This document shows positions 20,618-47,089 of a DNA stretch of 64,000 nt, piece after piece. Origin of the DNA: a virus; the IMG/VR virus record IMGVR_UViG_3300045988_159113; one strand, given 5' to 3'. Made by a program: the position numbers and the translations under genes. The notes under the pieces are model-generated. The model was not told where the DNA came from, ran no database searches, and saw only the letters and a program-made list of their open reading frames with translations. Position 1 is the stretch's first letter. Every line of letters begins with the position of its first letter.

Positions 20618-21624
20618 ACAATTTTGCATATTATGTATATAACGACATCAATAATTGTGTTTATAGTCTTGATCTTTTAAGTGAGACAGTAACCAAGTCG
20701 CTTGATTTTTGGATTAATACTCATACTGGATATCATTTTTTCCATGAAATATTTAATTCAAAACCCGAGCTTTTGAGATGTCTGAATGATATGAATCAGG
20801 CAACGGCTAATTCATACACTAGGACATTTTTGATAGATCCGCCGTATTACGTAAAGCAGTCATGGCAGCCAGTAACGAACATATTGTCAACTCGTATAAC
20901 AGCCTATAATATGACCTGTACATTCATTGCAGAAGGAGGAGGTCCTACTGGTTGTGAAAATGGCACGGAGTTCGAGAAGTTTCTTTTTATGAATAGAGAA
21001 AAGCGTTTCGATATTTATTATCTTGCACGCATTCATAAGTTTCTTATCAAATCTAAAATTGTTAGACCAGTTGTGAATGATGGGAGAGCCTTGCCTAGGT
21101 TAATTGACGATATACTGTTCAATGTTGCCCTTGGTACTGGTGATACAACAACAGCAAAGATTGATAAATTCAGTGGGTTTTTCCTCAACCTCAAAGGTTG
21201 TACTAATGACCAGATCTTCAAGACTTACGGAATAGAAAAAGCAAGTCTTCAAAGATTCCTGACTAAGCCAATGGTCGCTACTCAGTATTGGCCAGAGGAC
21301 ACGCTGGATTCATTGGCTAAGATTATCAACTATATCAACAACAACTTCTACGCTTTTTGCGGTCCGAAAACAACATTGTCAATTTCTGGTAATGAAATTA
21401 TGTTTTTCGGAACTTCTCTTTTCGTTTCACAATTGAAGAATGGGAAGTGGTACATCAAAGGTGATATGGAAAAGATATGTCAGCTGTTTGGTGTATCCAC
21501 TTGTGTAGAGCTTAGGCGTTTTGTTGATAGAACACTTGGGGAGAAAATACGCCATGGTATATTTCCCGAGTGTGATTCGAGAGATGAGATTTTTAAATTA
21601 CTAGATAAAGTGAAAAATGTCTGA
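20614..21624 (+). CDS. tandem array member A8
   Basis: FLIDPPY; IHKFLIKSKIVRP; YWPEDTLDSLAKIINYIN; SQLKNGKWYIKGD; RHGIFPECDSRDEIFKLLDKV. Confidence 0.8.
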   Translation: MNNFAYYVYNDINNCVYSLDLLSETVTKSLDFWINTHTGYHFFHEIFNSKPELLRCLNDMNQATANSYTRTFLIDPPYYVKQSWQPVTNILSTRITAYNMTCTFIAEGGGPTGCENGTEFEKFLFMNREKRFDIYYLARIHKFLIKSKIVRPVVNDGRALPRLIDDILFNVALGTGDTTTAKIDKFSGFFLNLKGCTNDQIFKTYGIEKASLQRFLTKPMVATQYWPEDTLDSLAKIINYINNNFYAFCGPKTTLSISGNEIMFFGTSLFVSQLKNGKWYIKGDMEKICQLFGVSTCVELRRFVDRTLGEKIRHGIFPECDSRDEIFKLLDKVKNV

Positions 21625-22600
21625 TTTAAAATATCTATATTATTCAATTAAACAAGGGAAGCTTCTAGCTCTTTATCTTGAAGATGGAAAGTTTGACCTT
21701 TACCCTGTAAGATTTCCGTTTGAATTTGAATCGAAAACTTTTTCTGGTCCAACTGGACTTGTTCTTTTTTGTGAAAGTTATAACAAAACAACAGCGAAGA
21801 AGTACAGGAAGCTTTACGGAATCAAACCACCATATGTTCTTCATACTTATATTGGTATCGGAGGAGAAGTTGTGTGTTTATTTACTTTTCACGGGAACAA
21901 ATTGTCTGTTACTGATGGATTGGACTTTCCAAAATTAAACACTACAATTTGGAATCAGGAAATTGATGCGCCACTTGATAACTTCTGCAAACAACACCAA
22001 GACAAAATGTTCAACTTGTCGGCAGTGATTGCATTTCACAGGTTCTTCATTGATAGCATGGTTATCGCACCGATAGGTCCCGGCTATTTTAATGCAAAAC
22101 TTGACGGGATTATTTATCATACTGAGATAAGAGCAGATTCAGATTTTTGGTATCTGTATTTTTCAAATTCTCTATCAAACGATCATATCTTTGAGTATTA
22201 TAATATACCAAAAGATGAAGTTTTGGAAGTGATAAACCAAAAGCATTGGGCTGGGGCTTGGCCAGAGTCAAGTAAAGAAAACCTGTTCAAACTTATTGAT
22301 TATATCAACAGAAGGTACTATGCAAATTTTGTATACGAGAGTTTTAAGATCACGGAAAATTCTATCGTGTCCAATTTTGGATGTTTGGATTTCAAGCAGA
22401 ACAAGAAGAGTGGCGGCTGGTTCCTATCCGGGAATATGAATGTCATTCTCGCTTTGTTCAAACTTGAATCTATAGGAGATTTGAAAGCTCGTGCGAATGA
22501 AATTCTCGGAAAACAAAAACGAAGTGGTATTTTCCCAGAATGTGATTCGAAAACAGAACTCATTGCACTCATAAAAACAATTAAAGATGAACGCAGATAA
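21617..22600 (+). CDS. tandem array member A9
   Basis: YGIKPPY; FHRFFIDSMVIAP; AWPESSKENLFKLIDYIN; KQNKKSGGWFLSGN; RSGIFPECDSKTELIALIKTI. Confidence 0.8.
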   Translation: MSDLKYLYYSIKQGKLLALYLEDGKFDLYPVRFPFEFESKTFSGPTGLVLFCESYNKTTAKKYRKLYGIKPPYVLHTYIGIGGEVVCLFTFHGNKLSVTDGLDFPKLNTTIWNQEIDAPLDNFCKQHQDKMFNLSAVIAFHRFFIDSMVIAPIGPGYFNAKLDGIIYHTEIRADSDFWYLYFSNSLSNDHIFEYYNIPKDEVLEVINQKHWAGAWPESSKENLFKLIDYINRRYYANFVYESFKITENSIVSNFGCLDFKQNKKSGGWFLSGNMNVILALFKLESIGDLKARANEILGKQKRSGIFPECDSKTELIALIKTIKDERR

Positions 22601-23564
22601 TGTATATTATCTTTTCTATGATCAGGTAAATCAAGAATTGATAAAGCTGGATCTGTTGGAACTTTCTGACTTACCAAACAAAACATGTTTCGTAACTTTC
22701 CCGTTTGTGCTCAATGGTAAATATGCGCACAATGGTCATGACTTGGTTAACTTAATTAACGAGTATAACGGAAGAGTCTATAACAGGTATCAGGATGAGT
22801 ACAAGATCAAACCGCCGTATTTCATAAAATGTGCATATAATCAAATCGGACGTGTTGATGTTTCCATATTCTACAAGAAAAAACATTTCTTGTTTTATGA
22901 TAATAAGATAAGCAATCCTGACGATTATCCTATTATTGATTCTTTCGTTTCCAAGCATAAGTCTCTACCATTCTGCGGTGTCTATATGAAGAAACTTCAT
23001 GAGTTCATTATGGATAACCAAATCGTGCGCCCAAATCCAAAACCAGGAGGCATTTATTTCAATGTTGTGATAAAGGGCAAGATTTACAAGGCTTATATTT
23101 GTAAAGAAAGTACCGATCATTGTTTTCTCTCTTTCCCATTAACAGGAAACAGATATGCCTTTGATTGTTATAATATAAGCGAGGAAGAAGTGTTGAATGT
23201 TCTTGGTATCAATGAGTGGCAAGGTGATTGGCCTGAAACACCAGAAAGAAAAGTGTATGTTCTGCTTGATTATATCAACGAGAACCGTATGGCTGGACCT
23301 GTTATCGACAGGTTAAAGATAGACGGCAATAAGATCATCACATCTTTTGCTGAGTTCGAGATAAAGCAAACGAAGACTGGCAAGTGGTATATTCGGGGAA
23401 ATATTGAGCAGATATGCTTGTTGTTTAAAGTTCCTAATATTACGGAACTCAAACATCTTGTCAACAAGATAATTGGCAACAAGATACGGCACGGTGTCTT
23501 TCCGGAATGTGATTCGAGAGAAGAGGTCACGAAACTTTTAAAATCAATTAGAGATGACAGATAA
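22587..23564 (+). CDS. tandem array member A10
   Basis: YKIKPPY; LHEFIMDNQIVRP; DWPETPERKVYVLLDYIN; KQTKTGKWYIRGN; RHGVFPECDSREEVTKLLKSI. Confidence 0.8.
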   Translation: MNADNVYYLFYDQVNQELIKLDLLELSDLPNKTCFVTFPFVLNGKYAHNGHDLVNLINEYNGRVYNRYQDEYKIKPPYFIKCAYNQIGRVDVSIFYKKKHFLFYDNKISNPDDYPIIDSFVSKHKSLPFCGVYMKKLHEFIMDNQIVRPNPKPGGIYFNVVIKGKIYKAYICKESTDHCFLSFPLTGNRYAFDCYNISEEEVLNVLGINEWQGDWPETPERKVYVLLDYINENRMAGPVIDRLKIDGNKIITSFAEFEIKQTKTGKWYIRGNIEQICLLFKVPNITELKHLVNKIIGNKIRHGVFPECDSREEVTKLLKSIRDDR

Positions 23565-24513
23565 GTTTTATTATCTTTTTTATGACCGTATAAACGGAAA
23601 GATAATCAGATTAGATTTGTTTAACGCTAACCTATCAATAGGCGAAGCCGTTTCTGTGATGTTTCCATGGGCAATTGATGGGAGGCTTACACATAATGAT
23701 GGCGAAGTAGTGATGGCGATCAACAAACACAACCAAAGAACATATAAACGATATATTGAGAAGTTTAAAATCAGACCTCCGTACTATATCGAAAATGTGC
23801 TCGGCGTTCGTGGTATGATCAATGCTATTGTTACTTACAAAAGTAGGTCACTTTTGCTTAAAGAGTACATGCTTGTCGACAAGTATAATGATGTCGCTCC
23901 ATTCTTTGCTAAATATGACTATGCGAAGTTTAACATCTGTTATATGATAGGGCTTCACAAGTATATCTTGGACAATCAGATCATACGTCCTAGCAAACAT
24001 AATAGCGGAATGTTTAGCGTCATGATACTTGGTAAAAGCTATATCGCGAATGTTGTAGTTTCACTAGATCATTGCTTCCTTAACATAGAAGGTATATCAA
24101 ACGGAGCAGTCTTCAATCATTATAAAATAGGTAAATCAAAAGTCCTTGAAGTACTCAGGATAGACAAATGGTACGGAGACTGGCCAGAGACTACCGAAGA
24201 CAAGGTGTACGAGTTAATCAACTATATCAACGAGTGCAGAAGCTCAAGCACTAATCCTGATAAAGTTGAGATAAGCGGAAATGAAATCATCACAGATTTT
24301 GCTAGACTTGAAATAAAGCAAAGCAAAAATGGTAAATGGTATATCAGTGGCTCGCTCGAGAATATATTGAAATTGTTTCATATTGACGACCAAGTCGAGT
24401 TGAAGCAAATGGTCAATAACCTTTTCGGATCTAAGCGACGCGCTGGTGTATTCCCTGAACTTGATTCTCGTGATGATGTTATTAAACTAATCAAAGTAAC
24501 GCAACATGAATAG
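23554..24513 (+). CDS. tandem array member A11
   Basis: FKIRPPY; LHKYILDNQIIRP; DWPETTEDKVYELINYIN; KQSKNGKWYISGS; RAGVFPELDSRDDVIKLIKV. Ends in TAG. Confidence 0.8.
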   Translation: MTDKFYYLFYDRINGKIIRLDLFNANLSIGEAVSVMFPWAIDGRLTHNDGEVVMAINKHNQRTYKRYIEKFKIRPPYYIENVLGVRGMINAIVTYKSRSLLLKEYMLVDKYNDVAPFFAKYDYAKFNICYMIGLHKYILDNQIIRPSKHNSGMFSVMILGKSYIANVVVSLDHCFLNIEGISNGAVFNHYKIGKSKVLEVLRIDKWYGDWPETTEDKVYELINYINECRSSSTNPDKVEISGNEIITDFARLEIKQSKNGKWYISGSLENILKLFHIDDQVELKQMVNNLFGSKRRAGVFPELDSRDDVIKLIKVTQHE

Positions 24514-25558
24514 AGAAACTGATTTCTTTTATCTATTTTACAATAGAACCAACAAATACTTGGTACAGTTGGATCTGTTGAGTAATTACTCGGAGAATAT
24601 ATCTTGTCGAACAGTAGATGGCGATAAGTACAAGCTGTATGGCAAGTATTTCAAAGCAGAGGATGAGTTTATCCAAGCTGTTAATGATTTCAATGTGTCG
24701 ATGGCTCAAAAGTATTTTAGCAAGTTCAAGATTCTTGCACCGTATAGATTAGAGTGTCAGCTCTTATTCTATATAGACGGAGGGGCAGACTACAACATAT
24801 ACATCTCAACACATGACAGATGCTATCGTTTCATTTATGGCAAGGAAACGCCTGCAAACTTTATAGAATTTGCACGTATCCGCAATATAGAGCCGGGGAC
24901 TTTCAATCTTCGCTATATGCTGAACCTACATACTGCACTTTTGAACTCTGCAGTGTTCAGGGCTGGATATGACAGGGGCAAGTTCTGTTATACTGTAAAC
25001 TGTGGAGAAAATTCTTTCTGTGCTCATATCGCGAAGTCAAGAGTAAGAGCTGGCTGTTATTTCCTAGCCTTTAGTCCTAATATTCCGAATGACTACGTCT
25101 TCGCGTATTACAACGTCAATAGGCAAAACATCAAGGATCTCTTGACTGTAGACTCCTGGACCGGAAAGTGGCCCGAGGATGTCGAGTCGACAATCTACGC
25201 GATCATGCAGTATATGAACAGAACATATATCGCAAATGCCAATTTTAGTTTTGTAATAGATGATGATGCTGTCATGTTCAACGGTACCAGATACCCATTC
25301 AAACAAGCAAAGAAGGGAGGCTGGTTCTTGTCTGGCAATATTGAGAAGATACTTCAGATGTTCGGTCTTGATAGTGTCGACTCATTACGTAAGACAGCGA
25401 ACCTATATCTTGGAGCAAAGAACAGACCGGGAGTTTTCCCAGAATGCGACACAAAAGAAGAGTTGATAAACTTGATTAAAATGTTCAAAGATGGAGAGCG
25501 AAAAATCAAAATTTCCGGTTCTTCTGTACTTCGATCCATGCAGCCGGATGATCTATAA
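24506..25558 (+). CDS. tandem array member A12 (C-terminal extension overlapping A13 by 68 nt)
   Basis: FKILAPY; LHTALLNSAVFRA; KWPEDVESTIYAIMQYMN; KQAKKGGWFLSGN; RPGVFPECDTKEELINLIKMF. An extra 20-odd residues follow the point where the other members stop. Confidence 0.8.
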   Translation: MNRETDFFYLFYNRTNKYLVQLDLLSNYSENISCRTVDGDKYKLYGKYFKAEDEFIQAVNDFNVSMAQKYFSKFKILAPYRLECQLLFYIDGGADYNIYISTHDRCYRFIYGKETPANFIEFARIRNIEPGTFNLRYMLNLHTALLNSAVFRAGYDRGKFCYTVNCGENSFCAHIAKSRVRAGCYFLAFSPNIPNDYVFAYYNVNRQNIKDLLTVDSWTGKWPEDVESTIYAIMQYMNRTYIANANFSFVIDDDAVMFNGTRYPFKQAKKGGWFLSGNIEKILQMFGLDSVDSLRKTANLYLGAKNRPGVFPECDTKEELINLIKMFKDGERKIKISGSSVLRSMQPDDL

Positions 25559-26510
25559 GTTCCCGCTTATCTGGACAACGGACATAGAACACTTGAAGTT
25601 CGAGATACTTATTGAAGAACTCGGATCAAGTACTGTATGGTTTCGTGGTATGAAATATGAGAACACGGAGGAACTCCTGCGTTTTATATCCAAAGAGAAC
25701 GAGAAGACGCGTAAAAAGTATAAAGAGAAATATGGCATTTTTCCGCCATATGTTATTACTCAATGTACTTTTAACACGACTTATTCAATTTGTATTAGAA
25801 CGCACAATTGCGAAAACTATGCTGTGTTTTTATTTGAAGATGGGGAAAAGCTTCCTGAGTGTATTGCAAATGGAGAAGTTCCTGTTTTTCGCAATGCAGA
25901 AATTAAAGCTAGCGATAGGTTTAATATTAAAACACTCATCAAGTTGCATAACTCCATCGTCTCAAATTATGTAGTACGTCCTGCGATTTATTTGGATTGT
26001 TGTGATAGGTATGTTGCAAAAATAAACGGCACGCTTTATGATGCTAGGATTGTTAGAGTTGCTGATAATACTTTCTATTTACAGTTTTTCACGATTCCCA
26101 GCATAAAACTTTTTAAGTATTATGACATAAAGTTTACAGAATACGAGCCTATCATATCTCATGACTTCCGTTTGATGGATGGCTATATCCCTGTGGATAA
26201 TAAAGAGCACATCCTAAAAATTCTTGACTTCATCAATAGTAAGCGCTGTGCTATGGAGTATGCATCGTTTACTATCAAAAGCGATACTATCCTAAGTAAT
26301 GGATGTATGTTCAAGATAGTCCAAACGCCAACTGGCAAGTGGTACATAAAGGGTAAGAGTGACGACTTCCCTAAGGTGTTCAAGTGCTCAAGTATGGAGG
26401 AGATCAGAGAGTTTGCGATCAAGCTATTCGGGCGAAGGATTACTGGAGTATTCCCAGAGTGCAACACCAGGGAAGAGTTGTTAACTTTAATCGAGAAGAT
26501 GAAGAAATGA
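25491..26510 (+). CDS. tandem array member A13
   Basis: YGIFPPY; LHNSIVSNYVVRP; IPVDNKEHILKILDFIN; VQTPTGKWYIKGK; ITGVFPECNTREELLTLIEKM. Confidence 0.8.
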   Translation: MESEKSKFPVLLYFDPCSRMIYKFPLIWTTDIEHLKFEILIEELGSSTVWFRGMKYENTEELLRFISKENEKTRKKYKEKYGIFPPYVITQCTFNTTYSICIRTHNCENYAVFLFEDGEKLPECIANGEVPVFRNAEIKASDRFNIKTLIKLHNSIVSNYVVRPAIYLDCCDRYVAKINGTLYDARIVRVADNTFYLQFFTIPSIKLFKYYDIKFTEYEPIISHDFRLMDGYIPVDNKEHILKILDFINSKRCAMEYASFTIKSDTILSNGCMFKIVQTPTGKWYIKGKSDDFPKVFKCSSMEEIREFAIKLFGRRITGVFPECNTREELLTLIEKMKK

Positions 26511-27532
26511 TAATCCAACTTTTAGAAGAACCGACTTATCTATACTTTGACCAGATGGTGATGAAAGTCTACCAGCTGCCAATAATGCATACGATACAGT
26601 TGTCGGCTGTTGAAGTTTACAACGTACGACATCCTCAAGGCATCATGTCAATGCGCGAACGAGAAGTTGACCTATGGTTTCGAGATGCGCATTACAACAC
26701 GATCGGTGATCTCTTGAAGTATATAAACAAGAGAAACGAGAGAATGTTCAAATATTACGTTGAGAAATTCGGAATTTCTCCTGCTTACTTTTTGGACCAA
26801 GAAGCTGATGCGGATAATGTAGTCATTACCACTATTGTAACACATCTCGATTCTTACCGTTTTGAATGTGATGGTCGGATAGATTATGAAATAATAGAGA
26901 AGACTATTCCCGTTTTCAGTTATGCAGACATCAAAGAAGATGACCGTTTTGGCGCAGAAGTTCTGGTGAAGATGCACAACTCCATCATCAAAAACCAGGT
27001 GATAAAACCCACCATATACAAGAACGTTTACACCGTAAGAATGGGCGATTTGTTTGCAAAAGCAAAAATCGATACGATGGATATAGGTAGGGTGCCTGGC
27101 TATCATTTGCATTTTCTATCTTATCATGATAGGATTGTTTTTGATTATTACCACATACGATATTCTGACTTTGCTTATGTGATCCCTGATACCGAATTGA
27201 GTAACGGGATACCTGTTGGCCCAGAAGAAGATATCAGAAAGCTCATCAACTATATCAATATGACATATTGCGTTTGTGAGGGCTCAAAGTTTAGTGTGAA
27301 TGATAATATTATCATCTGCAATAAGCACAAGCTTGAAATTACACAAACGCGAAACGGCAAATGGTATATCAAGGGTGATGTTTTACTCGCTTTTGGGTTG
27401 GATAGTATGGAGGCAATCAGAAAGGCTGCGTCTGATCTCTTCGGTAAAAAGAGGATGAACGGAGTATTCCCGGAATGCGATTCCAAGGAAGACCTCCTGC
27501 GACTCGTTGAAGTTCTTAGAAAATACAGGTGA
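26507..27532 (+). CDS. tandem array member A14 (last)
   Basis: Start set at the ATG at 26507 (ATGA overlap; MIIQLLEEPTYLYFDQ matches the N-termini of A10-A13). FGISPAY; MHNSIIKNQVIKP; TQTRNGKWYIKGD; MNGVFPECDSKEDLLRLVEVL. Confidence 0.8.
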   Translation: MIIQLLEEPTYLYFDQMVMKVYQLPIMHTIQLSAVEVYNVRHPQGIMSMREREVDLWFRDAHYNTIGDLLKYINKRNERMFKYYVEKFGISPAYFLDQEADADNVVITTIVTHLDSYRFECDGRIDYEIIEKTIPVFSYADIKEDDRFGAEVLVKMHNSIIKNQVIKPTIYKNVYTVRMGDLFAKAKIDTMDIGRVPGYHLHFLSYHDRIVFDYYHIRYSDFAYVIPDTELSNGIPVGPEEDIRKLINYINMTYCVCEGSKFSVNDNIIICNKHKLEITQTRNGKWYIKGDVLLAFGLDSMEAIRKAASDLFGKKRMNGVFPECDSKEDLLRLVEVLRKYR

Positions 27533-28802: not shown

Positions 28803-28893
28803 CATACTTGAACCAACAGACAACACGGCCGTTGTAAAAGATCCATATTACGACGAACCGATGGCAATGTTGGATAGAATAAAACAAGAATGA
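28681..28893 (+). CDS. small conserved phage protein with P.LRFGQ motif
   Basis: LEKYPSLRFGQALINLNIL...DPYYDEP resembles a recurrent ~70-aa phage/bacterial family of unknown function, recognised from memory only. Confidence 0.55.
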   Translation: MSEKNLIEQRQEANLRLLEIIQDYLEKYPSLRFGQALINLNILEPTDNTAVVKDPYYDEPMAMLDRIKQE

Positions 28894-29504
28894 AAGTATA
28901 TCGAATACAACAGAAGAATTTTAATTCCATAACGCAGTCAACACTTAGTGTAGAAGATGGGACGAAGTTTCAATTTATACCAACAGGAAAAGAGGACATG
29001 TACAATGTCGCCTATATCACTGATGGCAGTAAAGAGAACGTCATAAGGTGTAAAAGATTAGTGAACTCTTTTCAGTTTCTACTTCCTTATGATAAGCTCC
29101 TTATCATTCTCAAGGACTTCATGGGCAAGCCGTTCGAGGAATCGACGGAGATAAAGATCAATGATTTCTATCTCTCTTGTTTCCCAAAGGGGCATCCAGA
29201 AAGACCGCTTGAGTTCTATCATGTGCTTGACTTTACAGGAACCGCGTTCAAGGTAATACGTGTAAGGATAACGGATCCATTAAACAAGATATATAATCCT
29301 CGGATTGAGTACACAACAATCGCACCGCTTACTTTGTTCAGAAGCCAGACGGGAATAGCTAGAGGTCCAGAGACTGCGCTGTTTACTGACTTCATGAAAA
29401 AAGAAGATTTCGAGCGTTATATGGATATCATAACTCTTACACTGAAAGGAGACACCAATCGTTTAATGACAAATGAAATACTTTACAATTCAGGAGCTGA
29501 CTAA
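28890..29504 (+). CDS. hypothetical protein
   Basis: 204-aa ORF with ATGA coupling. Confidence 0.6.
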   Translation: MKVYRIQQKNFNSITQSTLSVEDGTKFQFIPTGKEDMYNVAYITDGSKENVIRCKRLVNSFQFLLPYDKLLIILKDFMGKPFEESTEIKINDFYLSCFPKGHPERPLEFYHVLDFTGTAFKVIRVRITDPLNKIYNPRIEYTTIAPLTLFRSQTGIARGPETALFTDFMKKEDFERYMDIITLTLKGDTNRLMTNEILYNSGAD

Positions 29505-29928
29505 TTCATAGACAGCTAAAGCAAAGGGTCTTGATAATACTCCGGACCCACAACAGGAGCACAATCTCCGCAGGCTTATCGAGGAGCTGCTCGATCCATT
29601 ACGTGAAGCTTGGGGTAAACCGATAAAGGTAACCTCCGGGTTCCGTGGTTTCGCACTTAATAAATGCGTTAAAGGATCAAAAAGTTCGGCTCATTGTATA
29701 GGAGCAGCTGCGGATCTTGTACCTGTAGATGGGAAGATGCCACAATTCAAAAGATTCGTGAGAGACTGGTTGACTGAAAACAATATCAAGTTTGACCAGT
29801 ATATAGATGAGAGAAGTGGAAACAGTGAGTGGGTACATCTGGGACTTATCAACCAGTCAGGAAGACAGAGGAGACAATTTCTGATGTATCGCAACAAGAC
29901 GTATGTATCATTGAAGGATATATGTTAA
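29473..29928 (+). CDS. peptidase M15 (D-Ala-D-Ala carboxypeptidase / endolysin-type) containing one in-frame TAG at 29509..29511
   Basis: MKYFTIQELTNS-TAG-TAKAKGLDNTPD...LREAWGKPIKVTSGFRGFALNKCVKGSKSSAHCIGAAADLVP...EWVHLGL. The N-terminal F...EL..S.TA...(I/L)DN.P motif spans the TAG. Zn ligands H..6..D and H lie downstream. There is no ATG between the TAG and 29737. Confidence 0.75.
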
Positions 29929-30680: not shown

Positions 30681-30688
30681 AAAGTAAA

Positions 30689-30714
30689 GCCCGGGTATAA
30701 CTCGGGCTATTTTT
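30689..30714 (+). terminator. rho-independent terminator
   Basis: GCCCGGG-tataa-CTCGGGC stem (one G-T pair), then ta, then a T5 run. Confidence 0.7.
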
Positions 30715-30813: not shown

Positions 30814-31020
30814 ATGAGTAGAAAGAGAAGAAACAATTTCACAAGTCTCGAACTTGATAAACGCAAGTATGTCGTAGTGGATGAAGAAGACGGGAGCATA
30901 TCCATCTATAACATCACACCGCGATATCATATCTGCATTGTCAATTATAAGTCGAAAGACCAGGAGTACGCGCGAAATTGTATCATGGAAACTTTAGACT
31001 ATTTGAAAAGAGACATATGA
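30814..31020 (+). CDS. hypothetical protein
   Basis: ORF 30811..31020. ATG at 30814. Its stop overlaps the ATP-grasp start. Confidence 0.5.
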   Translation: MSRKRRNNFTSLELDKRKYVVVDEEDGSISIYNITPRYHICIVNYKSKDQEYARNCIMETLDYLKRDI

Positions 31021-31793
31021 GAAGAGTGAGACATTTAACCGTTAGAAGCCGCAATGTATCATGTCGGCCTCTACGAGAGTTAGAGGTTCCCGTTCGTACT
31101 CTGTACAGAATGGGAAGTGCCACACCGATTGAACGAATCTTTCGTTCTCCTTTACGTTATCTTGAGATAAACACAGCCCATGGCTGTCTTATCTCTGGTG
31201 ATAAGATAAAGATGAAAAGAGCTTTCAATGAGTGTGGCGTACATACTGCGGAGTGGTTCATCGCTCATAACAGAGTCGATGCCAGAGGTAAAATTCAGCG
31301 TTGGCTTCCAACCTGGGGTGTCATCATTGCAAAGAGGTTGAACTCATCGGGTGGCCGTGGTATCTATCTTATACGAAATGTTGGAGACTTGGACCAGATC
31401 CACGACGACATCACGAAGTATATTTTCGAGAGATATTACAACTACACGAAAGAGTACCGCGTACATGTCAGCAAATTCGGATGTTTCTATACATCAAGAA
31501 AGATGTTGAGAAATACCGCAACTGTGAGATGGCACAGACATTCTGAAAACTCCGTTTTCATAAATGAAGAAAACCCGATGTTTGACAAGCCGACTAACTG
31601 GGACGAGATAGTCGCCGATTGTATCAAAGCCCTCAAGCATATGCAGCTTGACATCGCAGCGTTCGATGTCAAGTGTACAAGAGACGGGCGCTTTATACTC
31701 TTGGAGAGTAATTCCGCACCAGCACTTGGTGAGCAAGGCATCGAGAAATACAAAAACGAATTAAAGAAAATCATAAACGATAAATTAAGATGA
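31017..31793 (+). CDS. ATP-grasp (RimK-like) ligase
   Basis: DKIKMKRAFNECGVHT.EW...IIAKRLNSSGGRGIYLI...IFERYYNYTKEYRVHV...IAAFDVKCTRDGRFILLESNSAPALG. The ATG at 31017 forms an ATGA overlap. Confidence 0.75.
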   Translation: MRRVRHLTVRSRNVSCRPLRELEVPVRTLYRMGSATPIERIFRSPLRYLEINTAHGCLISGDKIKMKRAFNECGVHTAEWFIAHNRVDARGKIQRWLPTWGVIIAKRLNSSGGRGIYLIRNVGDLDQIHDDITKYIFERYYNYTKEYRVHVSKFGCFYTSRKMLRNTATVRWHRHSENSVFINEENPMFDKPTNWDEIVADCIKALKHMQLDIAAFDVKCTRDGRFILLESNSAPALGEQGIEKYKNELKKIINDKLR

Positions 31794-32638
31794 GTGAGTT
31801 CGGTTATACAAACTATCACACAATTTACAAGAGTGTTGGAGATGTTGATCATGCGATGGGTGAGGATTCTTGTTTTCATACCATCACCAAGGATTCCGGT
31901 TTGAAGATGATGAACAATGTGATCACTGTGCGGTTCTATGCTACCATTGACTACATACGGGATAATCAGAACAATAACTATTGCCCGTTTAGCGAGGACG
32001 AGATCCGCCAGTATCTGCACATTATCCAGACTTACAGACCCTTTGAGTTCAAGCTTGACACATGTTTCGGAACCGCAAACGATATAGAAGATAGCGACGA
32101 CGACTACGACGATGATGTTGAGTACAAGTACTATGAGCTTGAGTTGAAGATCAACGACTCGGTACTCTGGAACAAGTTCATCTTGAAAATGGTTCGCCCG
32201 TTATATGAATATCCGTTCAACTTCGCACTTCGCGATACCTTCAAAATGATGACTATCCCGAAGTTCAGAGAGTATGGGTTGTTCAATATCTATATGATGG
32301 TCGGCTATATCTTCAAGACTACTAGCTACATCTCAGTTTGTGATGATCAGTTTGTTTGTTCTTGTTATCGGAACATTCCGCAGTTCATGAAGAAGGCAGA
32401 CCTCATCAAGCGTATTGAGAGTATGAGCCAGGCACATTTGGCAGGAGAGACAAGAACTCCTGAATTCAATAATGTTGTCTCATATTCTGAGAGTGATTGC
32501 GGTGACTTCGGCGACTGGCTCGACAATCGATACTTCAACACAACAAACGTGAGAGAGGTGGAGTACTGGTTCGACGAGGAGATGTTCGAGGAGAGAGTAG
32601 AAATTTATTCTGAACTTATAGAAAGATTTGTGAAGTAA
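31790..32638 (+). CDS. hypothetical protein embedded in the amidoligase cluster
   Basis: 282-aa ORF, coupled on both sides. Internal acidic run DIEDSDDDYDDDVEY. Confidence 0.6.
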   Translation: MSEFGYTNYHTIYKSVGDVDHAMGEDSCFHTITKDSGLKMMNNVITVRFYATIDYIRDNQNNNYCPFSEDEIRQYLHIIQTYRPFEFKLDTCFGTANDIEDSDDDYDDDVEYKYYELELKINDSVLWNKFILKMVRPLYEYPFNFALRDTFKMMTIPKFREYGLFNIYMMVGYIFKTTSYISVCDDQFVCSCYRNIPQFMKKADLIKRIESMSQAHLAGETRTPEFNNVVSYSESDCGDFGDWLDNRYFNTTNVREVEYWFDEEMFEERVEIYSELIERFVK

Positions 32639-33285
32639 TGAGAAAATTGTATTGTGTAGGATGGGGTAGAAGCTATGCCAACTGGTTCCGTGATGTTGAA
32701 TTGACCGGAGATTTTGAGACTCCCAAGTTTCAGATCGAAGATGCGGATATTGTCCTCTTTACTGGTGGTGAGGATGTGAGCCCTTATCTTTATGGTAAGG
32801 CTCCACACCCTACGAGTTATTGGACAACATCAAGAGACGAGATGGAAGTTGAAGCCTTCAAGCGTATACGTCCCGATGCTCTGGCATACGGTACATGTCG
32901 TGGCCTGCAACTGCTTAACGTTATGAACGGCGGCATTCTCTGTCAGGATGCTACTGATCACTGGTGTTCAGGTACGCATGAGATACACAACGACACTGAG
33001 TCGTACCGTATCACATCGCTGCATCATCAGATGGTGTATCCTTTCGATCTCAATCCTGACTATTATGACATTCTGTTTTGGAGTACTCCACGCAGTAAGC
33101 ATTACGAAGGGGATGGGATCGATCCGACACTCTACCACAAGTTTGGCGAGCCTGAGATTGTGCTTTATCACAAGCCAGGATTACCCAAGTGTCTTGGAGT
33201 GCAAGGACACCCTGAGATGATGTCTCCCAATAGCCCGGTTGTGAACATGTTGAATAACTTAATAGATGACATTCTTAAAAAATAA
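32638..33285 (+). CDS. class I glutamine amidotransferase / peptidase C26-like (gamma-glutamyl hydrolase type)
   Basis: GTCRGLQLLNVMNGG (nucleophile-elbow Cys) and LGVQGHPEMM (His-Glu). Confidence 0.75.
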   Translation: MRKLYCVGWGRSYANWFRDVELTGDFETPKFQIEDADIVLFTGGEDVSPYLYGKAPHPTSYWTTSRDEMEVEAFKRIRPDALAYGTCRGLQLLNVMNGGILCQDATDHWCSGTHEIHNDTESYRITSLHHQMVYPFDLNPDYYDILFWSTPRSKHYEGDGIDPTLYHKFGEPEIVLYHKPGLPKCLGVQGHPEMMSPNSPVVNMLNNLIDDILKK

Positions 33286-33289
33286 AAAG

Positions 33290-34201
33290 ATGGATTTAAA
33301 CTTTTCTGAAAAACTTTATGAGCTTCTCGGCTCTGGTGTTAGTTCACGTTACAATTTTAACAACTTCCTTGATGACGATGAACCCGATGATAATTTCGGT
33401 GAATTCCTGGAGAAGGTGAAGATCGGATCCGATCCTGAGCTGTTTATCATAAACACAAAGACAGGATCTGTTGTGTCTTCTATCGGATTGATACCTGGAG
33501 TGAAGGGTGCGCCTTGGGTGGACAAGTCGTGGGTCAAAGGTTATGGCTTGGAGACTGACAACATCCTTGCGGAGTTTAATATTCCACCCGCTACATCTTG
33601 TGAAGCTTTTGTCGACAGTATGGAGTTCATGAAGGATTACATAGACAAGTTTGTCAAGTCTAAGAATCCAGACCTTGGCATCGCGCACAAGGCAAGTGCA
33701 ATGGTGCCAGACGATCAACTTCAGAGCGAAGAGGCGAAGCTTTTCGGGTGCAGTGTCGACTACAACGCATACACAGAAAACGCAAACCCAAAACCTTGCG
33801 GAGAAGCTACGAACCTAAGATCGATAGGTTGTCACATTCATGTTTCATATCCACGCAAATCTCAAGTAAAGAGTATAAGCTTGGTTAAGTATATGGACGT
33901 ATTCGTAGGTATACCTTCTGTGATTCTTGATGCAGGAGAGGATGCAGTAAAACGTCGTGAACTGTACGGAAAGGCTGGATGTTTCAGGCTTACCAGGTAT
34001 GGGATGGAATACCGACCTTTATCTGGCCGGTTCCTGGCAAACACAGATCTTGAAGAGTTCATGTACAAGGCAACACTTCACGCCCTCGGCGCTTGGTTCT
34101 ATGATTATAGACTCCCAAGTGCTGATGATGTTCAGCGTTGCATCAATACAGGAGACATTAATCTCGCAATCCAACTCATCAATGATTACAAACTTGTTTA
34201 A
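33290..34201 (+). CDS. phiEco32-like COOH-NH2 ligase type 2 (GCS2-like)
   Basis: GSDPELFII...GLIPG.KG.P...GYGLETDNILAEFNIPPA...GCHIHVSYP...GMEYRPLS. Family recognised from memory of the phage amidoligase literature. Confidence 0.6.
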   Translation: MDLNFSEKLYELLGSGVSSRYNFNNFLDDDEPDDNFGEFLEKVKIGSDPELFIINTKTGSVVSSIGLIPGVKGAPWVDKSWVKGYGLETDNILAEFNIPPATSCEAFVDSMEFMKDYIDKFVKSKNPDLGIAHKASAMVPDDQLQSEEAKLFGCSVDYNAYTENANPKPCGEATNLRSIGCHIHVSYPRKSQVKSISLVKYMDVFVGIPSVILDAGEDAVKRRELYGKAGCFRLTRYGMEYRPLSGRFLANTDLEEFMYKATLHALGAWFYDYRLPSADDVQRCINTGDINLAIQLINDYKLV

Positions 34202-34228
34202 CTTTTAGAAAAGAAAGAGAGGTCTATT

Positions 34229-35593
34229 ATTTGTGGCATTTTTGGATACATAAAGTCTAAACCAGAACCGTTTGACTTTATGGAGTTCTGCACTTTAGGA
34301 GTGCATAACGATACAAGAGGAAAAGATTCTGTCGGTATTTATATCGATGGACAAACTGAGTATTATTGTAAGGGCAAGAACAATAGCCTGTTCTCGGAGT
34401 TTATCTCCAAGAGCAGGCTATTGCAGTCTGTAGAGGTTGCACAAGTTGCATATGGTCATGACCGTGCAGCTTCCATTGGCACCGTATCTATTGAGACTGC
34501 ACAGCCCGTAGTGTTAAAAGAAGATGACAAGATCACATATGTGCTTATGCACAATGGCACCATCTATAATTATGAGGATCTAGCCAAAAAGTATATTCCA
34601 GATGTGGATATCAAGGGGATGACTGATTCCCAGGTTATGGCGCGCATATTCTACAAAGCAGGATATGATGCACTCAATGAATATATCGGTGGTGCCGTGT
34701 TTGCCATTATCGATTACCGCGGAGAAAAACCAAAGTATCTATTCTGGCAAGGGCACAGTAAGAACACGCAGTATTCACAAACCAGCCAGCAGGAAGAACG
34801 CCCGCTGTTCTTCTTGAAGAGTAAAGGCGAGATGATGTTTTCATCTCTTGATACATATCTTGACGCATTCAGGAGACAATCAACAAAGTTGGTGCCGACT
34901 CCAAACTTGCTGATAGAGTATGATCCAGAGACTGAGGAGTTTATCTCACTTGAAGAGTATGACAGGAAGAATTGCTTTCAGACTAAGCCATACGTCGCAA
35001 CCACTACCACATATTACGGAAACAACAACTATGGAAGTAGTACGTGTAATTATAGCCATAGCACTAATCGCGGCACTTCTTGCTATTCAAGCGGTTATGT
35101 AAACACAGACACGCACACCGGACAATGTCGCAGAGGCGCAAGTCTTTTGCATGGCAGCTATAGCATCAGCACCTATGGCAACATATCGGAAAGCGCCAAC
35201 CAGAACGGATCGAATTATATGACCATGTGGTTCTTCAATGGTATACTCATGAAGAACGAGCAAGCATTCATATATCTCACAAAGTTCTGTAAGGAGTGCG
35301 GCATTAGTATTGATGAGTGTTTCAAATGGTATGATGACTTGGTTTATTATCTCTCGCCTTACCCTTATCGCGAGAAGAAGATCGGAGGAATTCCCTTCAT
35401 GTTCAAAACCAATGATCCCGCAGGCGGTGAAGAGTACACAGGAGATGTACTTTATCCGTTTTCTACATACTCCAAGCGATATGTTAATGGTTCCTATGTA
35501 TCAACAAGGACATCAACATTTATCGAATCGCTTGAAGCGTATAACAAAACAAAAGACGATAAGTTAGATATAGACGTTTTAATGAAAGTATAA
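34229..35593 (+). CDS. Ntn-type (class II) glutamine amidotransferase domain protein with a C-terminal extension; apparent ATT start
   Basis: (ATT)-CGIFGYIKS..., RGKDSVGI, MHNGTIYNYEDL, MTDSQVMARIF. The only codons between the upstream in-frame TAA (34199..34201) and Cys are ctt tta gaa aag aaa gag agg tct att att. Confidence 0.7.
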   Translation: MCGIFGYIKSKPEPFDFMEFCTLGVHNDTRGKDSVGIYIDGQTEYYCKGKNNSLFSEFISKSRLLQSVEVAQVAYGHDRAASIGTVSIETAQPVVLKEDDKITYVLMHNGTIYNYEDLAKKYIPDVDIKGMTDSQVMARIFYKAGYDALNEYIGGAVFAIIDYRGEKPKYLFWQGHSKNTQYSQTSQQEERPLFFLKSKGEMMFSSLDTYLDAFRRQSTKLVPTPNLLIEYDPETEEFISLEEYDRKNCFQTKPYVATTTTYYGNNNYGSSTCNYSHSTNRGTSCYSSGYVNTDTHTGQCRRGASLLHGSYSISTYGNISESANQNGSNYMTMWFFNGILMKNEQAFIYLTKFCKECGISIDECFKWYDDLVYYLSPYPYREKKIGGIPFMFKTNDPAGGEEYTGDVLYPFSTYSKRYVNGSYVSTRTSTFIESLEAYNKTKDDKLDIDVLMKV

Positions 35594-36811
35594 ATGGCAG
35601 AAATTATTTCAGATTTTAAGAATGGCGCTCCTGTTATTGCAAGGGGAACAGAGTTTGTAGACAACAAAGTTGCACTTTTACACGACAAGAAGAGGTCAAC
35701 AAAAATGTTGGTAGAGGTCTCAGAAAAGACTCTCCCGTATATAGCATTTGCTAATACGATGGGTGCATATGTGATCAAGTCGCAGTATACCGAGGATGAG
35801 CTTTTCTATCTTATGAACACTATGGGAACCGGCAGTTTCCCGTATACATTCGAGAGGCGATACGAAGCAATGGACAGCTTCAACCTCTTCAATGGTCATG
35901 AGGTGATAGAGAAGGATATCGAATTTGAACTGGCTAAGTTCATGCCTTACACTTTTGGTATTGAGTACGAAACGTCTATGGGATATATTCCTCAGGATGT
36001 TTGTTTCAGAAATGGTCTCATCCCTTTGAGGGATGGGTCCATCTCTGGCTTGGAGTATTCAACAACCGTGATGCAGGGAAACGATGGACTCAATCTTGTC
36101 TATCAGCAGCTTGAGGCTCTGCGTAAGTTTACCTATTTCAACAAGGAGTGTTCCCTTCATGTTCATATGGGAGGCTATCCTATTGATCCTATGGCGATCT
36201 ATGCCTTATATAGAGTTTGCTATTTCTTGCAGGAAGAGATGGCAGAGTTCTTGCCCGACTGGACTTTCGAGACTTCCAAGTATAAGAAGAGCGGGAAGGA
36301 CTATTGCCATAAGCTCGCAAACTACAAGACATTTGGCGAGCTCTATGAGAATATCGCACAGCAGAAGTTCATGGGAAGCCTGGAGCAGCCGCATCCAAGA
36401 GATGAGGAGAGAAGCCATAAGTGGGATTGCACAAGCAGATACACATGCGTCAACTTGTTGAACCTCATGTGTTATGACAAGTGCAAGACTGCGGAGTTCC
36501 GATTCCTGCGTCCTACCTATAACTTCAAGAAGATCTATTACTGGCTCGCAATCTTCAATGCCATACTCAAGTATAGCGAAGACCTCTTCGCTAAGAGTGA
36601 CAAGACAGAGAAGGGTATCGAGCAGTTGATCTATGACGACAACACCTCCATCTATCTAATTGCCAGCTCGGTTTATCCCAAACCTCTGGCAGATAAGATC
36701 GAGGATTTCGTCAACAAGCTGTATGTAGCAGTAGGTAATCAGAGAACAAACGGTGATCTCTATGGCAAAGATACGGCTATTGAGGATGCCATTATCGGGA
36801 CCAGGTTATGA
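35594..36811 (+). CDS. Amidoligase_2-family (glutamine synthetase-like) amidoligase
   Basis: FGIEYETSMGYIP...RDGSISGLEYST...CSLHVHMGGYP...AEFRFLRPT. Confidence 0.65.
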   Translation: MAEIISDFKNGAPVIARGTEFVDNKVALLHDKKRSTKMLVEVSEKTLPYIAFANTMGAYVIKSQYTEDELFYLMNTMGTGSFPYTFERRYEAMDSFNLFNGHEVIEKDIEFELAKFMPYTFGIEYETSMGYIPQDVCFRNGLIPLRDGSISGLEYSTTVMQGNDGLNLVYQQLEALRKFTYFNKECSLHVHMGGYPIDPMAIYALYRVCYFLQEEMAEFLPDWTFETSKYKKSGKDYCHKLANYKTFGELYENIAQQKFMGSLEQPHPRDEERSHKWDCTSRYTCVNLLNLMCYDKCKTAEFRFLRPTYNFKKIYYWLAIFNAILKYSEDLFAKSDKTEKGIEQLIYDDNTSIYLIASSVYPKPLADKIEDFVNKLYVAVGNQRTNGDLYGKDTAIEDAIIGTRL

Positions 36812-46246: not shown

Positions 46247-46502
46247 TTTCTTTGGTCATACAATCAGAGCGACGCAAAAACAGCTTGAGCTATTGCTTGG
46301 ATTTGATCATAATGCAAGCAAAGACGGGAAAAGTCGGTGCATCTGGCATAAGACAATCGACGATATGCCTTTTTGTGTGTATGATTGGAAGATGGAAGCA
46401 GAGCCAGACGAAACTATAGACTGGCACATTGGAGCGAGAAACGAAGAAGAAAGTAAAAAGATACAACGAATTTTGAATAATGTAAAAACTAATGAATTAT
46501 GA
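46212..46502 (+). CDS. hypothetical protein
   Basis: 96-aa ORF. Overlaps the primase 3' end by 35 nt. There is no later ATG. Confidence 0.5.
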   Translation: MSTSNTSGVPNSFFGHTIRATQKQLELLLGFDHNASKDGKSRCIWHKTIDDMPFCVYDWKMEAEPDETIDWHIGARNEEESKKIQRILNNVKTNEL

Positions 46503-47089
46503 GACCACCTTTTTTTAAACCATCATGTAAAGACACATCGTGCAAGGTAACATTCCCCGATGGCCACACATAGGAATTTGAGACAATCGAACAGGCAGCA
46601 GAAGCAACTGGTGTATCACTCGCAGCATTGAAGAAGCGCTGCAAGTATCCAGGGAAGGAAACGAAAGACGGGATACTCTGCGAGTATCTCAACCCTGCTA
46701 TGCTCCGCAAGGTTCGTAATAAAGCGAACAGAAGCAAAGGCTGCTCTTTCGAGCGCGATATTATCAATAGGCTCAAAGAGGAAGGATTTGAGGAATGTGT
46801 ATCCTCTCGTCAGTACTCTCGAGCTATGGATAAGGCAAAGATTGATGTATGCGATCCAAGCGGTAAACTTCCGGTATATATTCAAGCGAAGTATACGACA
46901 AGCACGCCACAGTATACAAAGATCAAGAATGCCTGCCCGTTTGATGATAAGCCTTTCGTGACTATCTGGAAGCAGGCAACTAGAGATGGGAGTAACAGTC
47001 CCGGAACGATTGTGATGTTAGACTACGAGTTTTTTATTCAACTTTTAAAAAGTTTTGTCAAGGATGATTGCAATAATAGCAGTATATGA
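46499..47089 (+). CDS. HTH + PD-(D/E)xK (Holliday-junction-resolvase-like) nuclease containing one in-frame TAG at 46571..46573
   Basis: The ATG at 46499 forms an ATGA overlap with the upstream stop. MRPPFFKPSCKDTSCKVTFPDGHT-TAG-EFETIEQAAEATGVSLAALKKRC... then GCSFERDIINRLKEEGF...DVCDPSGKLPVYIQAKY. The track ORF (46628..) starts inside the HTH. Confidence 0.65.

What the first reader, a model, noticed from the sequence alone, without database searches (positions are those of the whole stretch)
29473..29928. M15 peptidase (endolysin-type) gene interrupted by a single in-frame TAG at a conserved position
Seen in the sequence:
- An ATG at 29473 opens MKYFTIQELTNS, then TAG (29509..29511).
- The same frame continues TAKAKGLDNTPD...VTSGFRGFALNKCVKGSKSSAHCIGAAADL...WVHLGL to TAA at 29928.
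- The family N-terminal signature F...EL..S.TA...(I/L)DN.P runs straight across the TAG.
- Downstream of the TAG there is no ATG for about 75 codons. The first one (29737) lies after the His/Asp metal ligands.

Inference:
- The gene is either dead or TAG is translated.
- It is established that some gut phages, including crAss-like, Lak and related lineages infecting Bacteroidota, reassign TAG to an amino acid (code 15). In those phages the in-frame TAGs concentrate in late and lysis genes.
- A lysis enzyme carrying the recoded codon fits that picture exactly.
Basis: partly seen in the sequence, partly recalled or inferred. Interest (0 to 1): 0.8.

Follow-up and report, generated by a model that had tools for sequence, protein, structure and literature searches.

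The report
Amber-gated endolysin in a TAG-recoded phage
The stop codon inside this cell-wall-cutting enzyme gene is real and is almost certainly read as glutamine, because the phage carries its own suppressor tRNA and uses TAG hundreds of times inside its late genes; this is a clear new example of a known phage trick, not a new kind of biology.

Summary
ATG 29473, in-frame TAG 29509-29511 and TAA 29926-29928 frame a 151-codon Peptidase_M15_3 / endolysin gene, and the family profile runs across the TAG.

The gene is neither dead nor an assembly error:
- The TAG is present in eight related assemblies from at least four datasets, including a 78%-identical ortholog.
- dN/dS is about 0.05.
- One relative has a second TAG exactly at a glutamine that is invariant in 120 of 120 homologs.
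- Standard-code homologs have CAG at codon 13.

The 64-kb window itself shows almost no recoding, because it is the early/replication block. About 6.5 kb past its end, on the opposite strand, the same genome carries giant late genes, plus terminase and portal, with 218 in-frame TAGs in 13,117 codons. There, coding coverage rises from 0.41-0.62 under code 11 to 0.71-0.96 under code 15.

A tRNA with a CUA anticodon sits on the same contigs as the TAG-bearing peptidase. TAG interchanges mainly with CAG/CAA between strains.

The phage is a 140-197 kb distant crAss-like lineage that resembles the Zeta group. A second early-block gene (46499-47089, resolvase-like) also carries one conserved TAG.

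This is a new member of a known kind.

The parts
29473..29928 (+). Peptidase_M15_3 (endolysin-type zinc peptidase) gene, 151 codons, read through one in-frame TAG
   Evidence: Purifying selection: dN/dS 0.05-0.07. Metal-ligand motifs SAHCIGAAAD and WVH are intact. About 50% identical to Bacteroides phage endolysins.
29509..29511 (+). In-frame TAG, codon 13, inferred to be decoded as Gln
   Evidence: Conserved in L001-L005, L008, L009 and L010. CAG sits at the aligned codon in the standard-code homologs P0011 and P0024.
46499..47089 (+). Second early-block gene with one in-frame TAG: a RusA-like/PD-(D/E)xK-type resolvase candidate, 196 codons. Its ATG overlaps the stop of the preceding gene (ATGA).
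   Evidence: PHROG 244, E=5e-5. The TAG and upstream 24 codons are conserved in 6 contigs, with only synonymous third-position changes upstream of the TAG.
46571..46573 (+). In-frame TAG, codon 25 of the resolvase-like gene
30688..30708 (+). Terminator-like hairpin (9-bp stem, 6 GC pairs, T-run) after the gene that follows the peptidase; possible end of the transcription unit
   Evidence: The count of such sites in the region is not above the shuffled expectation, so this is only suggestive.

Best explanation
The gene at 29473-29928 is an intact, selected M15-family peptidoglycan peptidase, the endolysin-type enzyme of a large (about 140-197 kb) distant crAss-like phage of Bacteroidota.

Mechanism:
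- The phage encodes its own amber-suppressor tRNA (anticodon CUA) and uses TAG as a glutamine codon throughout its late genes.
- In an uninfected or early-infected cell with standard decoding, ribosomes stop at codon 13 and release a 12-residue peptide, so no lysin is made even though the gene lies in a standard-code block on the same strand as the replication genes.
- Once the phage suppressor tRNA accumulates, TAG is read as Gln and the full 151-residue enzyme is produced.
- The single early TAG therefore acts as a translational gate tying lysin synthesis to the late, code-switched phase.

Shown: the TAG is real and conserved; the gene is under purifying selection; the genome is TAG-recoded in its late genes; a CUA tRNA is on the same contigs; TAG interchanges with Gln codons.

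Inferred: the tRNA is charged with Gln; the timing of its expression; that this peptidase is the main endolysin; that the TAG is selected for timing rather than merely tolerated.

The confidence of 0.85 is for 'functional gene whose TAG is translated via the phage suppressor tRNA'. The timing-gate part alone is about 0.5-0.6.
For: 1. The TAG is real. It is identical in five IMG/VR contigs that differ at nearby SNPs, in an ENA 175-kb contig, in another ENA contig, and in a Logan contig whose protein is only 78% identical.
2. The gene is not a pseudogene. Window vs L008 has 13 synonymous and 3 non-synonymous differences (dN/dS 0.057). Window vs L010 has saturated synonymous sites (pS 0.86) with dN of 0.17, an intact frame and the TAG retained.
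3. TAG reads as Gln.
   - L008 has a second TAG at FD*YIDE, where the window has CAG and 120 of 120 homologs have Q.
   - Standard-code homologs P0011 and P0024 have CAG at codon 13.
   - Between two strains, TAG is replaced 22 of 29 times by CAG or CAA in late ORFs.
   - Late giant ORFs use CAA 174 / CAG 66 / TAG 116. Early genes use CAA 255 / CAG 289 and only two credible internal TAGs, one each in the peptidase and the resolvase-like gene; the raw count of 4 includes two in a spurious overlapping ORF at 209-556.
4. The genome is recoded.
   - ORFs of 1166, 1581, 3497 and 3890 aa carry 18-64 in-frame TAGs each.
   - Code 11 vs code 15 coverage is 0.62 vs 0.96, 0.50 vs 0.95 and 0.41 vs 0.71.
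   - With TAG read as Q, TerL (12 TAGs) matches PHROG 6681 at E=2.5e-71 and portal (11 TAGs) matches PHROG 6547 at E=4e-49.
   - Nine late ORFs contain 218 TAGs in 13,117 codons.
5. Suppressor tRNA. ARAGORN finds anticodon CTA, and Rfam tRNA scores 47 bits against a 29-bit cut-off. It lies on contigs 155098, 155535 and 156042; the first two also carry the TAG-bearing peptidase (L004, L003).
6. Source gene callers had already translated these genes with TAG=Q: P0001-P0003 do not translate to the query under code 11.
7. Literature. Late-gene TAG-to-Gln recoding with suppressor tRNAs in crAss-like phages is described in PMC7886860. Preferential recoding of lysis genes and the timing hypothesis are in bioRxiv 10.1101/2021.08.26.457843.
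Against: - No suppressor tRNA lies in the window itself. Its presence in the window's own genome is inferred from relatives that are 98-100% identical at the loci compared.
- The exact 38-nt tRNA core was found on only 3 of 6 close IMG/VR contigs. The others may be incomplete or carry variants.
- No holin or spanin is adjacent to the peptidase, and a TAG-free glucosaminidase with a membrane anchor exists at 9366-9821. The peptidase may therefore not be the sole or main lysin.
- Codon 13 is a variable position in the family (D 71, A 13, E 10, Q 5 of 120), so any residue might be tolerated there. The timing role cannot be separated from neutral CAG-to-TAG drift in a genome that already decodes TAG.
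- Aminoacylation with Gln has not been shown. The discriminator base is A, and the resemblance of the D-arm and acceptor stem to phage tRNA-Gln genes is weak evidence.
Confidence: 0.85

Rival explanations
1. Pseudogene: a nonsense mutation killed a redundant lysin, and another hydrolase (for example the glucosaminidase at 9366-9821 or the virion SLT/peptidase protein) does the job.
For: A single TAG at codon 13 with no downstream start would abolish the product under standard decoding. Other peptidoglycan hydrolases are encoded: PF01832 at 9366-9821, and an SLT-domain protein in L034 2006-3271.
Against: - dN/dS is 0.05-0.07 among close relatives.
- The frame is intact and the catalytic motifs are retained at 78% amino-acid identity, with synonymous sites saturated.
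- No frameshifts or other stops occur in any of 8 copies.
- A second TAG falls exactly on an invariant Gln.
- The genome demonstrably translates TAG in essential genes.
Confidence: 0.03
2. Sequencing or assembly error: the true codon is CAG.
For: TAG is one transition from CAG, the codon found in standard-code homologs.
Against: The same TAG occurs in contigs from IMG 3300045988 (5 strain variants), ENA ERZ28575150, ENA ERZ27280745 and Logan SRR22974106.
Confidence: 0.01
3. The TAG is translated, but as a neutral consequence of living in a code-15 genome: CAG-to-TAG drift once the suppressor exists, with no role in timing lysis.
For: - TAG and CAG/CAA interchange freely between strains in late genes.
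- L008 gained a second TAG at another Gln.
- Codon 13 is a tolerant position.
- The sequence context after TAG does not differ from that after CAG or CAA.
Against: - In 79 genes on the + strand of the window (19,325 codons, 544 CAA/CAG), only two genes carry an internal TAG. Both are plausibly late-acting and potentially harmful if made early: a wall peptidase and a junction-resolvase-like nuclease.
- The TAG at codon 13 persists in an ortholog whose synonymous sites are saturated.
- Borges et al. found lysis genes significantly enriched for recoded stops in two lineages.
Confidence: 0.25
4. Translation bypasses the TAG by another route: re-initiation downstream of the TAG, or a frameshift fusion with the upstream ORF that ends 5 nt before it.
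For: The upstream ORF (28890-29504) overlaps the peptidase start and ends at TAA 29502-29504, immediately before the TAG.
Against: - There is no ATG, GTG or TTG in frame for 75 codons after the TAG.
- Residues 1-12 (MKYFTIxELxxS) belong to the conserved domain.
- Homologs are stand-alone proteins of about 145-150 aa that start at the same Met.
- A simpler mechanism, the suppressor tRNA, is demonstrably available.
Confidence: 0.02

Closest known systems
TAG-to-Gln (code 15) recoded crAss-like phages, especially the Zeta group (Yutin et al. 2021, PMC7886860; Babkin et al. 2025, PMC12386605)
   Same: - Genome of 140-197 kb, against 145-192 kb reported for the largest crAss-like family.
- Replication block in standard code, with DnaG primase, DnaB-like and other helicases, family A DNA polymerase, NrdD and dUTPase.
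- Opposite-strand block of giant multidomain proteins, one with a DxDxD-like 'DYDID' motif.
- Recoding confined to late genes.
- Suppressor tRNA(CUA), and a tRNA block near the start of the early genes.
- TerL is 26-28% identical to crAss-like TerL and 41-49% identical to unannotated human-gut contigs MT835539 and MT835470.
   Different: - No GenBank phage matches the late 1166-aa protein or the peptidase region at DNA level.
- Group membership was not tested by phylogeny.
- Here the lysin is not in the recoded late block. It sits inside the standard-code block on the early-gene strand and carries a single TAG.
Recoded lysis cassettes as a proposed lysis-timing control (Borges et al., bioRxiv 10.1101/2021.08.26.457843; published in Nat Microbiol 2022)
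   Same: A peptidoglycan hydrolase carries a recoded stop in a phage whose replication genes use the standard code, and the suppressor tRNA is encoded in a TAG-free island. That paper also describes a recoded homing endonuclease embedded in an early gene, which is analogous to the gated genes here.
   Different: - Their crAss-like example is a lysozyme-type amidase plus a spanin inside the late module with strong TAG enrichment. Here it is an M15 peptidase with one TAG (two in one strain), physically separated from the late module.
- No adjacent spanin or holin was found.
Peptidase_M15_3 endolysins of Bacteroides phages (for example B124-14 and vB_BfrS_UZM3, annotated endolysin)
   Same: About 50% identity over 81-91% of the protein, the same domain (PF08291), and the same conserved N-terminal F..EL..S.TA...DN motif and H/D/H ligand motifs.
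   Different: Those genes have no in-frame stop and sit in standard-code siphovirus genomes.
Phassvirus (phAss-1) group of TAG-recoded human gut phages (Babkin et al. 2023, PMC10607447)
   Same: Genome of about 136 kb, TAG in 41 ORFs including hallmark genes, and suppressor tRNA genes.
   Different: No detectable similarity in the GenBank phage collection for this region or the late protein. phAss-1 carries three suppressor tRNA genes, whereas one was found here.

Membership tests
Genetic code 15 (TAG = Gln) phage | In-frame TAGs in hallmark late genes that are restored to full length when TAG is translated | tested here: met
   With TAG read as Q, TerL (12 TAGs) matches PHROG 6681 at E=2.5e-71 over residues 47-704, and portal (11 TAGs) matches PHROG 6547 at E=4e-49. 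These were found in close relatives of the window's genome, outside the window.
Genetic code 15 (TAG = Gln) phage | Coding density gain under code 15 versus code 11 | tested here: met
   Late block: 0.62 to 0.96 (L032), 0.50 to 0.95 (L036), 0.59 to 0.93 (L052) and 0.41 to 0.71 (L050). Not met inside the window (0.935 vs 0.943), as expected for the early block.
Genetic code 15 (TAG = Gln) phage | Phage-encoded suppressor tRNA with a CUA anticodon | tested here: met
   L034 5447-5523 (-). ARAGORN reports anticodon cta and Rfam RF00005 scores 47 bits. Found on three contigs, two of which carry the TAG-bearing peptidase. Not found in the window itself.
Genetic code 15 (TAG = Gln) phage | TAG corresponds to glutamine | tested here: met
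   - A TAG falls at an invariant Q column, 120 of 120.
- The orthologous position is CAG in standard-code homologs.
- 22 of 29 TAG-to-sense replacements between strains are CAG or CAA.
- CAG is depleted where TAG is used.
- Charging of the tRNA was not tested.
Peptidase_M15_3 (PF08291) phage endolysin | Domain match above the curated threshold | tested here: met
   58.4 bits against a 23.2-bit cut-off. PHROG 894 'endolysin' at E=3.7e-36.
Peptidase_M15_3 (PF08291) phage endolysin | Zinc-ligand motifs (H-x6-D and a downstream H) present | tested here: met
   SAHCIGAAADL aligns with SRHMYGHAADL of 1LBU. The H of WVH is present in 119 of 120 homologs. That these residues are the zinc ligands rests on established knowledge of the fold.
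Peptidase_M15_3 (PF08291) phage endolysin | Muralytic activity and a role in host lysis, with a holin/spanin partner | not testable with these tools
   No protein with a transmembrane segment lies next to the gene. Function is inferred from homology to annotated Bacteroides phage endolysins.
crAss-like phages (Crassvirales sensu lato), Zeta-like | TerL, portal and giant RNAP-like transcription block homologous to crAss-like counterparts; genome of 145-192 kb with a complex replication block | tested here: inconclusive
   The best annotated TerL hits are crAss-like phages at 26-28% identity. No phylogeny was built, and the IHF and MCP signature genes were not examined.

The most novel reading that the evidence does not exclude
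A single, positionally conserved amber codon near the 5' end works as a stand-alone translational timer on individual dangerous enzymes (a wall peptidase and a junction-resolvase-like nuclease). These genes are embedded in, and probably co-transcribed with, standard-code genes on the early-gene strand. The phage would thereby separate when these proteins are made from when their mRNAs are made, using only the appearance of its suppressor tRNA.
Probability: 0.4. Interest if true: 0.5.

Novelty: new member of a known kind. Interest (0 to 1): 0.33.

Why it matters
- It is a clean, well-controlled instance of late-gene TAG-to-Gln recoding in an undescribed large crAss-like lineage.
- It shows that a window which looks fully standard-code can still contain genes that only make sense under the phage's second code. 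Standard annotation would discard this endolysin and truncate the resolvase-like gene.
- The arrangement offers a simple system for testing the lysis-timing hypothesis of stop-codon recoding: two isolated, single-TAG genes inside a standard-code block, with the TAG kept at codon 13 across saturated synonymous divergence.
- It does not change what is known in principle.

Tried and rejected
- Window-only code comparison: no gain apart from this gene. Taken alone this would have wrongly argued against recoding.
- tRNA scan of the window and the first 29 loci: no CUA tRNA, only Lys-UUU, Leu-UAA and Gln-UUG just upstream of the window. The suppressor was found only after walking about 19 kb upstream of the window in relatives.
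- blastn of the region against GenBank phages: no match. tblastn of a late 1166-aa protein: no match.
- PHROG searches of the 1379-aa ORF and several TAG-rich late ORFs: no hits.
- ORF 209-556, with two TAGs, was rejected as spurious because it overlaps a real gene in another frame.
- 3' nucleotide context of TAG versus CAG/CAA: no meaningful difference.
- Search for a holin or spanin next to the peptidase: none found.
- Promoter and terminator scan: counts are at chance level. Only the hairpin at 30688 is individually strong.

Full report
**1. The observation**

The sequence is as described.
- ATG at 29473 opens MKYFTIQELTNS. TAG follows at 29509-29511, and the same frame continues to TAA at 29926-29928.
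- With the TAG bridged, the 151-residue product matches Pfam Peptidase_M15_3 (PF08291) at E=9e-16. The match runs from profile position 1 at residue 2, so it starts upstream of the TAG.
- It matches PHROG 894 'endolysin' at E=4e-36 over residues 1-143.
- In an alignment of 120 homologs the residues on both sides of the TAG are almost invariant (F4, E8, S12, A15, N22), as are the later D108-Q109 and W120-x-H122.
- The H-x6-D motif aligns with the zinc site of the D-Ala-D-Ala carboxypeptidase 1LBU.
- No in-frame ATG, GTG or TTG follows the TAG before codon 89. The only routes to a functional product are therefore translation of the TAG or none at all.

**2. The TAG is real and the gene is alive**

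The TAG recurs in independent assemblies.
- Five IMG/VR contigs from metagenome 3300045988 (117-197 kb) carry the same TAG while differing at nearby SNPs.
- An ENA 175-kb contig (L008), a second ENA contig (L009) and a Logan contig (L010) also keep it. The L010 protein is only 78% identical.

Substitution patterns show purifying selection.

| Comparison | Synonymous / non-synonymous | Result |
|---|---|---|
| Window vs L008 | 13 / 3 | dN/dS 0.057 |
| Window vs L010 | synonymous sites saturated (pS 0.86) | dN 0.17; frame, catalytic motifs and TAG all retained |

The database proteins P0001-P0003 do not translate from their own DNA under code 11. The depositing pipelines had therefore already called these contigs with TAG=Q.

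**3. What TAG stands for**

- L008 has a second in-frame TAG at FD*YIDE. The window has CAG there, and all 120 homologs have Q.
- Codon 13 is a variable column (D 71, A 13, E 10, Q 5). The two standard-code homologs with Q at that position (P0011, 64% identical; P0024, 57%) both use CAG, one transition from TAG.
- In the late genes of two strains (contigs 138573 and 156042), 100 TAGs are shared. Of the 29 that differ, 22 pair with CAG or CAA, 3 with GAG, 2 with TAT and 2 with TCT (overlapping loci counted once).
- Glutamine codon use shifts between blocks:

| Gene set | CAA | CAG | In-frame TAG |
|---|---|---|---|
| 79 genes on the + strand of the window | 255 | 289 | 2 credible (raw count 4; two lie in a spurious overlapping ORF at 209-556) |
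| Late giant ORFs | 174 | 66 | 116 |

TAG has therefore replaced about two thirds of the CAG codons in the late genes.

**4. The genome context**

The window is a dense, single-strand block.
- It codes well under the standard code: coverage is 0.935 under code 11 and 0.943 under code 15.
- It contains a DNA methyltransferase, NrdD, helicases, primase, an exonuclease, dUTPase, a sigma-like factor and a family A DNA polymerase.
- It has no tRNA.

I walked outward through close relatives. They are 98-100% identical at the proteins used as anchors, and concatenated queries reached both flanks in one scan. About 6.5 kb past the window's right end the coding strand flips and TAG-rich ORFs begin:
- ORFs of 1166, 1581, 3497 and 3890 codons carry 18, 22, 54 and 64 in-frame TAGs.
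- Coverage rises from 0.62 to 0.96 (L032), 0.50 to 0.95 (L036) and 0.41 to 0.71 (L050) when TAG is read through.
- Further round the genome are a 760-codon terminase large subunit with 12 TAGs (PHROG 6681, E=2.5e-71 once TAG is read as Q) and a 730-codon portal with 11 TAGs (PHROG 6547, E=4e-49).
- Nine late ORFs hold 218 TAGs in 13,117 codons.

**5. The suppressor tRNA**

- Just upstream of the window start lies a tRNA cluster of Lys-UUU, Leu-UAA and Gln-UUG.
- About 19 kb upstream of the window start (about 8 kb beyond that cluster), in a TAG-free island within the TAG-rich region, ARAGORN finds a 77-nt tRNA with anticodon CUA at L034 5447-5523 (-). Rfam's tRNA model scores it at 47 bits against a gathering score of 29.
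- The same tRNA is on contigs 155098, 155535 and 156042. The first two also carry the TAG-bearing peptidase (L004 and L003).
- Its D-arm and acceptor stem resemble phage tRNA-Gln genes more than the neighbouring Lys and Leu tRNAs. This is weak evidence for Gln identity.

**6. A second gated gene in the window**

ORF 46499-47089 starts with an ATG that overlaps the stop of the preceding gene (ATGA) and has a TAG at codon 25.
- The product has a weak RusA-like resolvase match (PHROG 244, E=5e-5).
- In six related contigs the TAG is conserved, and the 24 codons upstream of it differ only by synonymous third-position changes, at four distinct sites. The N-terminal extension is therefore translated.
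- In about 19,300 early-block codons, only two genes carry an internal TAG. Both encode enzymes that act late and could be harmful if made early.

**7. What kind of phage**

- The closest annotated TerL relatives are crAss-like phages at 26-28% identity. Two unannotated human-gut contigs are closer, at 41-49%.
- Several features match the Zeta group of crAss-like phages (Yutin et al. 2021, PMC7886860; PMC12386605). These are the genome size, the elaborate replication and nucleotide-metabolism block, a block of giant proteins including one with a 'DYDID' motif, late-gene-only recoding, and a tRNA block near the start of the early genes.
- I did not build a phylogeny, so group membership is a lead and not a result.
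- The peptidase is about 50% identical to endolysins of Bacteroides phages, which points to a Bacteroidota host.

**8. Mechanism and its status**

Shown:
- The gene is intact and under selection.
- The genome translates TAG in essential late genes.
- A CUA tRNA is encoded on the same molecules.
- TAG behaves as a Gln codon.

Inferred:
- The tRNA is charged with Gln.
- It accumulates only after early gene expression.
- The TAG at codon 13 therefore withholds the lysin until the late phase.

The timing idea was proposed for recoded lysis genes by Borges et al.. The rival that the TAG is simply tolerated drift cannot be excluded. Against it stand the restriction of early-block TAGs to two late-type enzymes and the retention of the TAG through saturated synonymous divergence. 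Whether this peptidase is the main lysin is open. No holin or spanin is adjacent, and a membrane-anchored glucosaminidase without a TAG lies at 9366-9821.

**9. Verdict**

The phenomenon is established in the literature, so this is a new member of a known kind, found in a lineage with no close GenBank phage relative. It has a tidy twist: isolated single-TAG genes inside the standard-code block. Interest is modest.

Noticed in passing
window 14204-27532 (+): A tandem array of about 13-14 paralogous genes of 260-380 aa, 25-46% identical to one another and with overlapping start and stop codons. The gene tables of relatives list no Pfam family for them, and their function is unknown.
   Followed up: partly
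window 30978-36811 (+): A cluster of ATP-grasp, Peptidase_C26 (gamma-glutamyl hydrolase-like), COOH-NH2 ligase, GATase_6/7 and Amidoligase_2 genes directly downstream of the peptidase operon. It looks like a peptide or metabolite ligation/modification system.
   Followed up: no
window 9366-9821 (+): A 151-aa protein with an N-terminal hydrophobic anchor (residues 13-31) and a Glucosaminidase domain (PF01832, E=2e-15), with weak PHROG endolysin hits. It is a second peptidoglycan hydrolase, has no TAG, and sits in the early block.
   Followed up: partly
L008 10325-10327 (ENA ERZ28575150 scaffold_20): This strain's peptidase has a second in-frame TAG at the invariant Gln of FDQYIDE. TAG codons are therefore still being gained in this gene.
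   Followed up: yes
L022 6493-6572 (IMGVR_UViG_3300028886_000352): A more distant relative (58% identity in the anchor protein) encodes a tRNA with a UUA anticodon, a putative ochre (TAA) suppressor, next to a tRNA-Gln(UUG). This recalls the Gln-to-Sup anticodon mutation described by Yutin et al. 2021.
   Followed up: no
L036 3827-15499 and L050 3206-13699 (contig IMGVR_UViG_3300045988_138573, late strand): ORFs of 3890 and 3497 codons with 64 and 54 in-frame TAGs. The 3890-aa product contains a 'GSDYDIDKS' motif that resembles the DxDxD catalytic motif of crAss-like virion RNA polymerases. A related 1379-aa ORF has no PHROG hits.
   Followed up: partly
L013 180-3597 and L018 1112-2716, compared with window 54439-56544: In some close relatives the 701-aa NrdD gene region is replaced or interrupted by several shorter ORFs, some of them with in-frame TAGs. 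This could be an intron, intein or homing-endonuclease insertion, or a gene replacement.
   Followed up: no
window 6374-7051 and 60204-61043 (+): Two sigma-70-like factor genes (Sigma70_r2/r4 domains; PHROG 351) lie in the early block. They are candidates for phage-directed switching of transcription.
   Followed up: no
L034 2006-3271 (+) (contig IMGVR_UViG_3300045988_155098): A 421-codon ORF with 15 in-frame TAGs encodes an SLT transglycosylase domain (PF01464). By eye it also has an M15-like SGFR...H...D...HxH segment. It is probably a virion-associated wall hydrolase.
   Followed up: partly
window 15915, 24511, 46244: The few window genes that end in TAG have a TAA or TGA 3-14 codons downstream in frame. 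Late read-through would therefore add only a short tail.
   Followed up: partly
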